64,000 nucleotides of DNA from Scyliorhinus canicula (taxonomy: Eukaryota), in contig NC_052164.1 of assembly GCF_902713615.1 (NCBI RefSeq), positions 105,600,989 through 105,664,988 of the forward strand, read 5' to 3'. Below, one piece after another: positions 1 through 6,000 of the stretch; position 1 is the first letter of the stretch, and every line of letters starts with the position of its first letter. The position numbers are program-made.

Positions 1-3000
1 GAACTTGTCAACTCACACAGTTGAGTTGAGTTTTAACAACACCATGGGTTGGATTCTCCGACCCGCCAGATTTCTGCTTCAGCATGCCAGTGGGATTCTC
101 CGTTTCACCAGCTGGTCAATGGGGCAGCCCCACACCATCGGGAAACCCCCGGACTGCCGGCAAACTGGAGCATCCCGCCGGCACAGAATCCAATATGTCC
201 AAACCGTTTGTGTTCTGTGCGATCTTCTCAGCCCAACTCTTACAAACATCATTGTTGAGTTCAGTGAAAAATGCTTCTTCGATTGAATGGGGCTAACCCC
301 CTGGCCCTTCGGTATTTACAATATGTGGATTTAAATCTATAGCAGTGTGTAATCATTTCCTTATTTGTTTTAATGAGCTCCATCCAGTGCTCAAATTCAC
401 CTTTGACATTGAGCAGTCAAATCAACTCCGTTTCTTTGACATACTAATTGAGAAATCTGCCACGCTGCATCTCTCTCTCTTTGCANNNNNNNNNNNNNNN
501 NNNNNNNNNNNNNNNNNNNNNNNNNNNNNNNNNNNNNNNNNNNNNNNNNNNNNNNNNNNNNNNNNNNNNNNNNNNNNNNNNNNNNNNNNNNNNNNNNNNN
601 NNNNNNNNNNNNNNNNNNNNNNCTCTGCATCTCTCTCCTCTCTCTCTCTCTGCATCTCTCTCCTCTCTCTCTCTCTGCATCTCTCTCCTCTCTCTCTCTC
701 TGCATTTATCTCTCTCTCTCTGCATCTCTCTCTCTCTGCATTTCTCTCTCTCTCTGCATCTCTCTCTCTCTCTCTGCATCTCTCTCCTCTCTCTCTCTGC
801 ATTCTCTCTCTCTCTCTCTGCATTTATCTCTCTCTCTGCATCTCTCTCTCTCTCTGCATTTCTCTCTCTCTCTGCATCTCTCTCCTCTCTTTCTGCATCT
901 CTCTCTGCATCTCTNNNNNNNNNNNNNNNNNNNNNNNNNNNNNNNNNNNNNNNNNNNNNNNNNNNNNNNNNNNNNNNNNNNNNNNNNNNNNNNNNNNNNN
1001 NNNNNNNNNNNNNNNNNNNNNNNNNNNNNNNNNNNNNNNNNNNNNNNNNNNNNNNNNNNNNNNNNNNNNNNNNNNNNNNNNNNNNNNNNNNNNNNNNNNN
1101 NNNNNNNNNNNNNNNNNNNNNNNNNNNNNNNNNNNNNNNNNNNNNNNNNNNNNNNNNNNNNNNNNNNNNNNNNNNNNNNNNNNNNNNNNNNNNNNNNNNN
1201 NNNNNNNNNNNNNNNNNNNNNNNNNNTGTTCCCATAACCGTCGATTCCCTTATTGATTAGAAATCTGTCTCTCTCAGCCTTGAACATACTGAACGACCCG
1301 GCCTCTACAGCTCTCTGCGGTAAAGAATTCCACAGATTCACTCCCCTCTGAGAGAAGAAATTCCTCCTCATCTCTGTCTGAAATGGGTGCTCCCCCCCCT
1401 CTCCCCTCACTCTGAGATTCTGCCCTCTGGTCCTAGACTCTCCCACAAGGGGAAACAACCTCTCAGCATCGACCCTGTCAAACCCCCTGAGAATGTCTCA
1501 GTAAGGTCGCCTCTCATTCTCCTGAACGCCAATGAATCTTGCTCTCGTCTGCTGAAATATTCACTATTCCAGGATCATGTGGACATTGTTGGCAGGACCA
1601 GCATTTATTGCCCATCCCTAATTTCCCTTCAGAAGGTGGTGGTGAGCTGCCTTCTTGAACCGCTGCAGTCTCTGAGGTGTAGGTACACCCACTGTGCTGT
1701 TGGAGGAATTCCAGGATGTTGCCCCAGAGACAGTGAAGGAACGGCCGATATATTTCCCAGTCAGGATGGTGAGTGAGTTGGAGGGGAACCTCCAGGTGGT
1801 GGGGTTCCCAGGTATCTGCTGCCCGTAACCTTTAGATGGTAGTGGGTTTGGAAGGTCTCCAATATTAGATGTGATTCTGCAATTGTCCTAATAATTACGC
1901 TGACAACCAATTTAGGATTGTCAGTCAGGCTCACAGTGTGGGATATGCTGGAGGCCACATCTATTCATACACAGGGCCTTGTACTTTGCAGAGAGAAGGA
2001 ACATTGTACACACCCTGCCTGTTTCAACTGAGCAAAATAGGCAACAGTCGTTCTGTATGTGAAAATGTTTTCACACAGCGAGTAGTTTGGGTCTGGAATA
2101 CACTGCCTGGAATTGAGTTGGAGGAGCTTCAACTGAGGCATTCAAGAGATTAGTGAAGAGGCATTACATGATTATTTGAATTGAAACAGTGTGCAGTGAT
2201 ACGGGGGAAAACAGGAGCACGGCACAAAGTCATAATGCTCAATCAAAGCCAGTACAGACTTGATGGCTGAATGGCCTCCTTCTGCACTGTAACAATTCTG
2301 TGATCCCAGTTCATTCCCAAGGGTAATACCTTGACCAATCAGAGTTGAGCTACTTGGTTTGAATCCTCCATGGCAACACCTCTGCCAACTCAGAGTCCGC
2401 ACTTGCCAACCACTCAGCGCTCTCTTCTCCTGAAGTATAAATTGTTGGTCTGTGTACATTTGATGTTCTTGTGAAAGTCTTGATGAGTATAACACAAAAT
2501 GCTTTGAAATGTCAAAGTTACACATCCTGACAGGGTTTTATTGCTGGAGTGTTGCTGTGAACCTGACGCATTACCGTGTGGGTAACATTCTCTGTTTCAA
2601 TCTCATTCCTGATTGGTTATAAAACAGAGGCAGGAATCTCTTTAATCTCTCATTCTGTTGTTATGTACCAGTCAAAGTGTTTATATTGGGCTGTCCTTTC
2701 AAGTTATATCCTTGATCTGTACTGATAGTACCCCCCCCCCCCCCTCCCCCCTCACCCTCTACTCACTGGAGTTGTTGGCTGATTTCCGAGCCTTGGATTT
2801 GATCAATGCCATCCTTGGCATCATTTGTCAATTGACTGATGTAATCCCAGAAGGCATCTTGAACCTGACCTTCATTGACCTCAGCCTGGCAACCTGGGAA
2901 AGAAACAGATAATCAGAACATTCAATGAATCCACTGTTCATCCATAAACAGGAATCTTGTGATGATCCATCAGCGATTCAACCATGTCTTGTTCGTGAAT

Positions 3001-6000
3001 AAAAGAATAAATTTGCTACTTCTAGAATCATAGAATCCTACAGCACAGAAAAGGCCCTTCAGGCCATCACGTCTGCGCTGGTCAAATAATAATAATAATC
3101 TTTATTGTCACAAGTAGGCTTACATTAACACTGCAATGAAGTTACTGTGAAAATCCCCTAGTCGCTTCATCCCCAAGGCCTTCTTCCATAACCTAGATAG
3201 ATTAATTATGATATTTGTGGGGGGTGGGGAGCGGGGGGAAAGAATCCAAGAGACCCCATATGAACACTGCAAAGGAGGAAAATGAAGGGAGGCCTGGCGT
3301 TGCCAAACTGCAATGTTACCACTGGGCAGCAACAGCGGAGAGAGTGAGGGGATGGGTGCACGACCCCAACTCGGAGTGAGTGCAGATGGAGGAGGCCTCC
3401 TGTAGGGGGATGACCCTCTGGGCCCTGGCCATGGCAGCACTCCCATCCCCTTGACAAAATATACATCGAGACTGTGGGACCAACTAAGACAGCATTTTGG
3501 ACTGACCAAGATGTCCCCCATGGCCCCCATCTCAGAAACCACAGATTCCTGCCAGCCATGCTAGACGCAACATTTAAAAAATGGACACAGGGATGGAGGA
3601 ACACTGACAGTCAGGGACTTCTACACAGGACACAGACTAGCGATGCTGAATGAACTGACGGAGGAATAGGAACTACCGACAGAACATGCCGATGAAATGG
3701 GACACTTACAAATAAAACACTTCCTCCGCAAAGAGACAGATACCCTAGGGCCCCGGAGACCACATTAATAGAGGACCTGATGACCACGGGCGATAAGGAA
3801 GGGGGTCTCTGTGGGAAAATATATGGACAACTACTGGACAGAGCCCGAACACCATTAGACGAGATCAGACTGACATGGGGGGGGATGAACTGGGGACAGA
3901 AATATGTTGGGGACTCTGGAGCGAAGCACTGAGCAGGGCCAACCCCACCTCCTCCTGTGCAAGGCTCAGCCTAATGCAGTTTAAAGTAGTACACAGAGCG
4001 CACCTGACAAGCTCCTGAATGAGCAGGTTCTTCCCGGAGGCGGAGAGCGGTGCCAGAGGGGCCCGGCCAACCACACCCACATGTTGTGGGCTTGCCCCAA
4101 GCTGGCTGGGTTCTGGGCAGCCTTCTCCGAGGCAATGTCCAAGGTTGTGGGGGTGAGGGTGAAGCCATGCCCAAGAGTGGCAATCTTTGGGGTACCAGAG
4201 TTACACATGGGAAAGAGGGACACGCCAAACTAGGCAGCAACAATTTGTAAATAAAGACACTTAAGACAAAAGCCTTTTTACACTGTACAATAAATGAAAA
4301 CAAACAGCAATGTACATAATTTTGAAAATGCCAATAAAAAGATTTTTTTTTTAAGTATCGCATATACACACCAACAATATCACACCCCCCCGACAATATC
4401 ACACCCCCCCCGACAATATCACACCCCCCCGACAATATCACACACACACACCCAACAATATCACACCCTCCCGACAATATCACACCCCCCCGACAATATC
4501 ACACCCCCCCGACAATATCACACCCTCCCGACAATGTCACACCCCCCCGACAATATCACACCCCCCCCGACAATATCACACCCCCCCGACAATATCACAC
4601 ACCCCCGACAATATCACACCCCCCCGACAATATCACACCCCCCCAACAATATCACACCCCCCAACAATATCACACCCCACACCCAACAATATCACACACC
4701 CCCGACAATATCACACCCCCCGACAATATCCCACCCCCCCAACAATATCACACCCCCCCGACAATATCACACCCCACACCCAACAATATCACACCCCCCC
4801 CGACAATATCACACCCCCCCGACAATATCACACCCCCCCGACAATATCACCCCCCCGAAAATATCACACCCCCCGACAATATCACACACCCCCGACAATA
4901 TCACACCCCACACCCAACAATATCACACCCCACACCCGACAATATCACACCCCCCCCCCGACAATATCACACACACCGGCAACACGCGCACCTGAGAATA
5001 TAAGAAGCACAGGTACCTGACAATAGGTTAGCAGCTAGAAGCACAAGGATTGCTCTGGGAAACATGGTGGATTTCTTCAACAAGGAGCACATTAAGCACA
5101 ATTTCTGTTTTTCTGTGGAGAGACAAATTCAGAGTTATTTGGAGGGTTAAATCATTAAAAGCATCAGTTACATATTCCTGAGGAACTAATTGAAAATACC
5201 TGTTCATTAATTTAAAAATTATTCTGAGTGTTACTAACTCCTTCTGAATGCCACACAATTAGAGATCTGACTGTGACTATTAGCCGGTATTCTCAATATC
5301 AGCTGCCTGTTTAACTGTTTAGCGTAGTATTAACTTGCTTAGAGATACCTACTAACCACTTCCCAGGTCAGCGTATAAGCCCTGGGCTGTAACATTGAGA
5401 ATTACAGGCCAGTGTTTCTCTCACCTGCTTCTCCTCTACCCCTCCTGAGGTTCAGTGTTCCAATGCCACAGACCTTCTCTCTCTATAAGGGAACCTTATC
5501 AGTTGATAAGGAGCTGTTCTCACTGCCGTGTTCATGGACTTTCCCTGATCCCAGGAAAACGTGGAGCTTCCAACAACTCTGTCACTGTGAGCGGTGATGT
5601 ATTTCCTCCACTTGCTTCCAACGCCACTCAGAGTACAAATTCCAACTCAGACTCATGTCACAGAATAAAGGCCGTAGTTTGATCATCTCTGTAATGTCTT
5701 TAACATTCTGAGGACTTATTGTAAAGGATTTGATAGAGTAACTGAGGAGAAACTGTTTCAAACAGCAAGATGATTGGTAACCAGAGTGAAAGAGATTTTA
5801 AATAATTGGCAAAATAACTGTAGCACAGTGGTTAGCACTGTTGCTTCACAGCTGCGGGGTCCCAGGTTTGATTCCTGGCTTGGGTCTGTCTGTGCGGAGT
5901 CTGCACGTTCTCCCCGTGTCTGCGTGGGTTTCCTCCGGGTGCTCCGGTTTCCTCCCACAGTCCAAAGATGTGCAGGTTAGGTGGATTGCCATGAGAAATT

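What the first reader, a model, noticed from the sequence alone, without database searches (positions are those of the whole stretch)
2767..5065. Hidden ApoA-IV-like gene oriented away from ZPR1
Seen: two short minus-strand exons (49 and 127 nt), absent from the ORF track, splice into a signal peptide plus an FWDYISQL amphipathic block. Known: in human the order is APOA4-APOA5-ZPR1-BUD13, all on one strand, with APOA5 next to ZPR1. Here the nearest visible apolipoprotein is A-IV-like, about 19.5 kb from ZPR1 and head-to-head with it. I see no APOA5 exon in between. Inference: a local inversion, a lineage-specific paralogue, or a different ancestral cluster layout.
Basis: partly seen in the sequence, partly recalled or inferred. 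Interest (0 to 1): 0.65.

Follow-up and report, generated by a model that had tools for sequence, protein, structure and literature searches.

The report
Shark ApoA-IV-like gene start beside ZPR1
The two short exons are real and form the beginning of an ordinary secreted lipid-carrier (apolipoprotein A-IV type) gene in a shark, lying back-to-back with the promoter of ZPR1; the rest of the gene lies outside the window.

Summary
On the minus strand, a 49-nt exon (5065-5017) and a 127-nt exon (2893-2767) have canonical splice sites and compatible phases. The first has a good start-codon context.

- **Family:** the 41-residue exon-2 peptide matches residues 19-58 of human apolipoprotein A-IV (E 1.1e-7). 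ApoC-III and ApoA-I score only E about 1, and ApoE does not appear.
- **Conserved exon:** among 1.84 billion proteins, 7 of 9 hits are single-exon fragments. All 4 that I inspected are ApoA-IV-type and share the same exon borders.
- **Missing part:** no large repeat exon (PF01442) is detectable anywhere in the window, so the gene runs off the left edge.
- **Neighbours:** ZPR1 is complete on the plus strand, with its ATG at 24625. That is 19,560 nt from the apolipoprotein ATG, head to head. BUD13 exon 1 follows at 57578.
- **Host:** the window is from a shark. Its ZPR1 exon is 96% identical to Mustelus asterias.

Published work already reports ApoA-I and ApoA-IV in cartilaginous fish and places the origin of ApoA-V in amphibians, so the missing APOA5 is expected. 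Only the divergent orientation is mildly new, and I could not compare it with other genomes. A tree against ApoA-V or fish ApoE could not be built. This is an ordinary new member of a known kind.

The parts
5017..5065 (-). First coding exon of the ApoA-IV-like gene: start codon and 16 residues of a signal peptide plus one base of a split Gly codon
   Evidence: Context ccaccATG, donor GTACCT. Top-ranked of 142 candidates. Same MF start and same 20-residue length to the A|EV site as three mammalian ApoA-IV signal peptides (by eye).
2894..5016 (-). Intron 1 (2,123 nt), holding a 19-nt minisatellite of about 30 copies (4374-4972) and retroelement debris
2767..2893 (-). Second coding exon (127 nt): end of the signal peptide (C-Q-A), then the conserved amphipathic N-terminal block of the mature protein
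   Evidence: Acceptor tttcccAG, donor GTGAGT.
1..2766 (-). Start of intron 2. The large repeat exon is not here. It holds N runs at 486-622 and 915-1226, a (TC)n array and repeat debris
   Evidence: In one search, 0 of 10 minus-strand ORFs hit PF01442.
5066..24624 (.). Divergent intergenic region of 19.56 kb, CpG-poor at the apolipoprotein end and a CpG island at the ZPR1 end. It is filled with minisatellites, SINE-like pieces, an LTR retrotransposon (12465-17505) and L1-like pieces
24625..46732 (+). ZPR1, complete coding region in about 14 exons
   Evidence: Pfam Zn_ribbon_ZPR1 and jr-ZPR1; exon 1 read; exon map with named shark ZPR1 proteins; named relatives
57578..57694 (+). BUD13 exon 1 (N-terminal EEYLKRYLS motif) in a CpG island
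   Evidence: The motif was recalled and found once in six frames. There was no database confirmation.

Best explanation
This is the 5' end of a shark gene for a secreted, exchangeable apolipoprotein of the A-IV type.

Exon 1 gives the start and hydrophobic core of a 20-residue signal peptide. Exon 2 gives its last residues and the conserved amphipathic N-terminal helix. The long last exon, which carries the 11/22-residue lipid-binding repeats, lies beyond the left edge of the window.

By position beside ZPR1-BUD13 and by sequence, the gene is most likely the single counterpart (pro-orthologue) of tetrapod APOA4 and APOA5. APOA5 had not yet arisen in this lineage.

Shown here: the exons, splice signals, homology, neighbours and orientation.

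Inferred: secretion; lipoprotein binding; tissue-restricted expression from the CpG-poor promoter (probably intestine or liver); and the pro-orthologue status.
For: - Exon anatomy and phases.
- ApoA-IV is the only strong PDB match: E 1.1e-7, 20 of 40 identical, no gaps, residues 19-58. A profile gives E 1.4e-21.
- In the 1.84-billion library, 7 of 9 hits are short fragments that end one residue after the match. That fits an in-frame TGA inside a GTGAGT donor.
- The 4 fragments I fetched align without gaps from the acceptor Gly to the last codon, so the exon borders are conserved.
- All 5 proteins found with the profile carry PF01442 (precomputed). The 3 named ones are ApoA-IV records of three mammals; the other 2 are unnamed.
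- The signal peptide resembles mammalian ApoA-IV.
- The segment is amphipathic.
- ZPR1 and BUD13 are neighbours.
- Literature: ApoA-IV is present in Chondrichthyes and ApoA-V arises later from the A-IV lineage (PMC6854765, passages).
Against: - The defining repeat exon was not found. There were 0 further hits among 1547 ORFs with a mammalian ApoA-IV profile, no further hit at E below 0.01 by tblastn, and 0 of 20 ORFs hit PF01442.
- Pfam gives the exon only sub-threshold ApoC-III and ApoA-II hits, E 0.02-0.03.
- No shark, fish, ApoA-V or fish ApoE sequence could be obtained, so the A-IV assignment rests on 41 residues compared mainly with mammalian proteins.
- From memory, fish ApoE N-termini are also similar.
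- There is no expression evidence.
Confidence: 0.8

Rival explanations
1. A gene relic: only the first two exons survive, and the repeat exon was lost or destroyed by the transposon and repeat insertions downstream.
For: No repeat exon in 1-2766. That stretch is repeat debris with two N runs.
Against: Both exons are open, with an intact ATG context and canonical splice sites. Introns of several kb are normal here: ZPR1 spreads about 440 codons over 22 kb. An intron 2 longer than 2.7 kb is therefore unremarkable.
Confidence: 0.1
2. The gene belongs to another branch of the family, such as an ApoE-like or lineage-specific shark paralogue, and only its N-terminal block looks like A-IV.
For: The FWDY-type block is shared by several family members (recalled). 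PMC4348566 (passages) finds that zebrafish apoA-IV genes share synteny with human APOE and suggests a common ancestor. No fish or shark sequence was compared here.
Against: Human ApoE is absent at E up to 10, and ApoA-I reaches only E 1.3 against 1.1e-7 for A-IV. The exon length and borders equal the mammalian A-IV exon. The position next to ZPR1-BUD13 is the A-IV/A-V side of the cluster in human gene order (paper titles).
Confidence: 0.15
3. The head-to-head orientation is an assembly error: a mis-oriented contig.
For: The interval is full of repeats, which can mislead assemblers.
Against: There is no N between 5065 and 24625. The only N runs lie left of exon 2.
Confidence: 0.07

Closest known systems
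Mammalian apolipoprotein A-IV (human chain 9hx4_F; Neotoma, Galemys and Suricata records)
   Same: A 20-residue signal peptide starting MF. A split Gly codon at the first intron. A second exon of equal length with the same borders. 20 of 40 residues identical with no gap. The mature protein starts E-V.
   Different: Only the first two coding exons are visible here. The orientation relative to ZPR1 is divergent, whereas I recall the human genes lying on one strand. An acceptor-like site upstream of the ATG hints at a 5'UTR intron, which the A-IV lineage is said to have lost (PMC6854765 passage). That hint is untested.
Apolipoprotein A-V (APOA5)
   Same: It is the apolipoprotein gene next to ZPR1, as APOA5 is in human gene order (titles). 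A FWDY-type N-terminus is recalled for ApoA-V.
   Different: No ApoA-V sequence could be compared. The literature places the origin of ApoA-V in Amphibia (PMC6854765). The orientation also differs.
ApoA-I, ApoC-III, ApoA-II, ApoE (other exchangeable apolipoproteins)
   Same: [quoted passage not shown] There are weak matches to C-III, A-I and A-II.
   Different: Their scores are near chance (E 0.02 to 1.4) and ApoE gives no hit, against E 1.1e-7 for A-IV.

Membership tests
Exchangeable apolipoprotein family (ApoA1/A4/E, Pfam PF01442) | Signal peptide interrupted near its end by a phase-1 intron | tested here: met
   The junction was read by eye; the joined model was not run.
Exchangeable apolipoprotein family (ApoA1/A4/E, Pfam PF01442) | Short exon with the conserved amphipathic N-terminal block | tested here: met
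Exchangeable apolipoprotein family (ApoA1/A4/E, Pfam PF01442) | Large last exon with tandem 11/22-residue amphipathic repeats (PF01442) | tested here: inconclusive
   Not found in the window. The gene runs off the left edge, so absence from the gene is not shown.
Apolipoprotein A-IV | N-terminal exon closer to A-IV than to other family members | tested here: met
   A-IV E 1.1e-7, against C-III 1.1, A-I 1.3 and no ApoE. The profile search gave the same ranking. ApoA-V and non-mammalian proteins were not available.
Apolipoprotein A-IV | Second coding exon of the same length and borders as in mammals | tested here: met
   Gap-free alignment from the acceptor Gly to the last codon in the 3 fragments aligned (P0009, fetched, agrees by eye). 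That the human exon is also 127 nt is recalled.
Apolipoprotein A-IV | Three-exon gene without a 5'UTR intron | not testable with these tools
   Needs transcripts. An acceptor-like site lies near 5113.
Apolipoprotein A-IV | Groups with A-IV in a tree with A-I, A-V and E | not tested
   No named fish, shark, A-V or E sequences were obtainable, and only 41 residues are available.
Apolipoprotein A-IV | Linkage to ZPR1-BUD13 | tested here: met
Apolipoprotein A-V | Sequence similarity to ApoA-V | not tested
   No ApoA-V sequence came from any tool, and none appeared in the PDB searches at E up to 10.

The most novel reading that the evidence does not exclude
The divergent A-IV-like/ZPR1 pair may be the ancestral jawed-vertebrate layout. 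On this reading the shark gene is the single pro-orthologue of APOA4 and APOA5, and the collinear tetrapod order arose by an inversion tied to the duplication that made APOA5. It would also mean that the original A-IV locus is the ZPR1-BUD13 neighbourhood, not the APOE-type region where zebrafish apoA-IV genes lie (PMC4348566 passages).
Probability: 0.3. Interest if true: 0.4.

Novelty: new member of a known kind. Interest (0 to 1): 0.25.

Why it matters
It dates the linkage of an A-IV-type apolipoprotein gene with ZPR1-BUD13 to before the split of cartilaginous and bony vertebrates. It also gives an outgroup for the origin of APOA5, a gene of medical interest for triglyceride levels. Beyond that it is routine annotation: short-exon genes escape ORF-based tracks. 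Seven literature searches found no paper in the held library that describes this arrangement in a shark.

Tried and rejected
- **Word-index search with the exon alone:** no candidate.
- **Word-index search with a 4-sequence profile:** only 5 proteins, the 3 named ones mammalian ApoA-IV and no shark.
- **ESM Atlas:** no usable hit.
- **The listing of cluster members:** not available.
- **Two of the 9 library hits** (P0002, P0010) are unrelated repeat proteins. One has no Pfam family and the other matches a carboxysome peptide.
- **Search for the repeat exon and for any second apolipoprotein gene:** nothing. Sensitivity was limited because the queries were mammalian.
- **Rejected: exon 2 as part of a repeat element.** It is single-copy in the window.
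- **Considered: the start at 5092.** It has a poor context, and mammalian signal peptides align with 5065.
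Full report
**What is there.** Read on the minus strand, an ATG at 5065 sits in the context ccaccATGt. It opens 49 nt of coding sequence (16 residues, MFPRAILVLLAANLLS) that ends at 5017 before GTACCT. After 2,123 nt, a pyrimidine tract and cAG precede a 127-nt exon (2893-2767), which ends before a consensus GTGAGT. Its 41 whole codons read CQAEVNEGQVQDAFWDYISQLTNDAKDGIDQIQGSEISQQL. One base left over from exon 1 and two at the start of exon 2 make a Gly codon, so the phases fit. The two exons lie in stop-to-stop frames of 53 and 49 aa, which explains why an ORF track does not show them.

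**More than chance.**
- The exon-2 peptive matches residues 19-58 of human apolipoprotein A-IV (chain 9hx4_F) with E 1.1e-7, 20 of 40 identical and no gap. ApoC-III (E 1.1) and ApoA-I (E 1.3-1.4) are at chance level, and ApoE does not appear at E up to 10.
- Pfam gives only sub-threshold ApoC-III and ApoA-II hits. This is expected, because PF01442 models the repeat exon.
- A full HMMER scan of 1.84 billion proteins gave 9 hits at E up to 0.001. Two are unrelated repeat proteins. Seven are short fragments that each end one residue after the match.
- I fetched four of those fragments. Each shows intron-like residues, then Gly, then the A-E-V block, and ends one residue after the match. That is what an in-frame TGA inside a GTGAGT donor would give. 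The three aligned align with the window's exon without gaps, so both borders are conserved.
- I left three fragments unfetched because they could be human. One fetched fragment (P0009) is close to human, and I did not use it further.
- A profile of the alignment finds human ApoA-IV at E 1.4e-21. In the word-indexed set it finds 5 proteins, all carrying PF01442. The 3 named ones are ApoA-IV records of Neotoma, Galemys and Suricata.
- Inside the window the exon is unique. It is the only hit among 1547 ORFs (E 1.8e-12), the only tblastn hit below E 0.01 apart from one intron-derived artefact, and the only FWDY in six frames.

**Exon 1.** It ties with an in-frame ATG at 5092 in poor context that uses the same donor (the donor weights were my approximation). 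Its peptide starts MF like three mammalian ApoA-IV signal peptides. Counting through the split Gly and C-Q-A gives the same 20 residues before A|E-V (by eye).

**Amphipathic block.** The mature part is amphipathic. The best 18-residue helical moment is 0.569, against 0.313 +/- 0.081 in shuffles, and 8 of 5000 shuffles reach it.

**What is missing.** The family's defining part, a long last exon of 11/22-residue repeats, is not in the window.
- A mammalian ApoA-IV profile and an ApoA-I segment found nothing else, and neither did tblastn.
- Pfam found no PF01442 in 10 minus-strand ORFs of 1-2766 or in 10 ORFs of the intergenic stretch.
- The first 2.7 kb are repeat debris, a (TC)n array and two N runs of 137 and 312 nt. 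I left the N runs alone.
- Introns of several kb are normal here, so the exon most likely lies beyond the left edge. A relic is the main rival reading.

**Neighbours.**
- ZPR1 is complete on the plus strand. Exon 1 has its ATG at 24625 and carries the first CxxC. Both zinc-ribbon and jelly-roll domains are found, and about 14 exons run to about 46.73 kb.
- The distance between the two start codons is 19,560 nt, head to head, with no N in between.
- The apolipoprotein end is CpG-poor (observed/expected 0.15-0.33). The ZPR1 end is a CpG island.
- The spacer is largely mobile DNA: two minisatellites, an LTR retrotransposon at 12465-17505 with 97% identical 161-nt terminal repeats and gag, RT/RNase H and integrase frames, and L1-like pieces.
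- BUD13 exon 1 follows on the plus strand at 57578.
- One ZPR1 exon is 96% identical to Mustelus asterias and 93% to Carcharodon carcharias. The window is therefore from a shark whose own proteins are not in the set, which partly explains the empty search.

**Comparison with what is known.**
[quoted passage not shown] The missing APOA5 is therefore expected.
- PMC4348566 (passages) reports that zebrafish apoA-IV genes are syntenic with human APOE, not APOA4. An A-IV-type gene next to ZPR1-BUD13 in a shark is thus a useful, if modest, data point.
- The human one-strand layout is recalled. Paper titles give only the order. PMC11201263 (passages) said nothing on orientation.
- I could not obtain any shark, fish, ApoA-V or fish ApoE sequence. 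From memory, fish ApoE N-termini are also similar, which keeps that rival alive.

**Verdict.** This is a real gene start and an ordinary member of a known family. The A-IV type is supported against the human paralogues that could be tested. The orientation is mildly interesting, but its polarity is unresolved.

Noticed in passing
window 12465-17505: A near-intact LTR retrotransposon on the minus strand. It has 161-nt direct repeats that are 97% alike, and long open gag/protease, RT-RNase H and integrase frames. It looks like a recent insertion between the apolipoprotein gene and ZPR1.
   Followed up: partly
window 4374-4972: A 19-nt minisatellite of about 30 copies (88% matches) starts about 45 nt after the exon-1 donor, inside intron 1.
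   Followed up: no
window 5092-5210 (minus strand): An in-frame upstream ATG at 5092 in poor context. Also an acceptor-like tctctccacAG near 5113 and a donor-like cagGTATTT near 5200. These could mark a short 5'UTR intron, which the ApoA-IV lineage is said to have lost.
   Followed up: no
window 57578-57694 (+): BUD13 first exon (N-terminal EEYLKRYLS motif) in a very GC-rich island (GC up to 0.84), 10.8 kb after the end of ZPR1. ZPR1 followed by BUD13 is the same order as in human gene lists.
   Followed up: partly
window 24420-25106: GC-rich tandem repeats of 15-44 nt units lie just upstream of the ZPR1 start codon, and G-rich 17-36 nt repeats fill the start of its first intron.
   Followed up: no
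window 48076-53281 (minus strand): Long open frames of an L1-like element (349, 351 and 309 aa) and a Pro/Gly-rich low-complexity block at 51.5-52.4 kb, between ZPR1 and BUD13.
   Followed up: no
window 7795-8302 and 8759-9914: Two large minisatellite arrays with related 36/51-nt units (GGATACAGTGTTGTT...). They create spurious ORFs of up to 535 aa in several frames.
   Followed up: no
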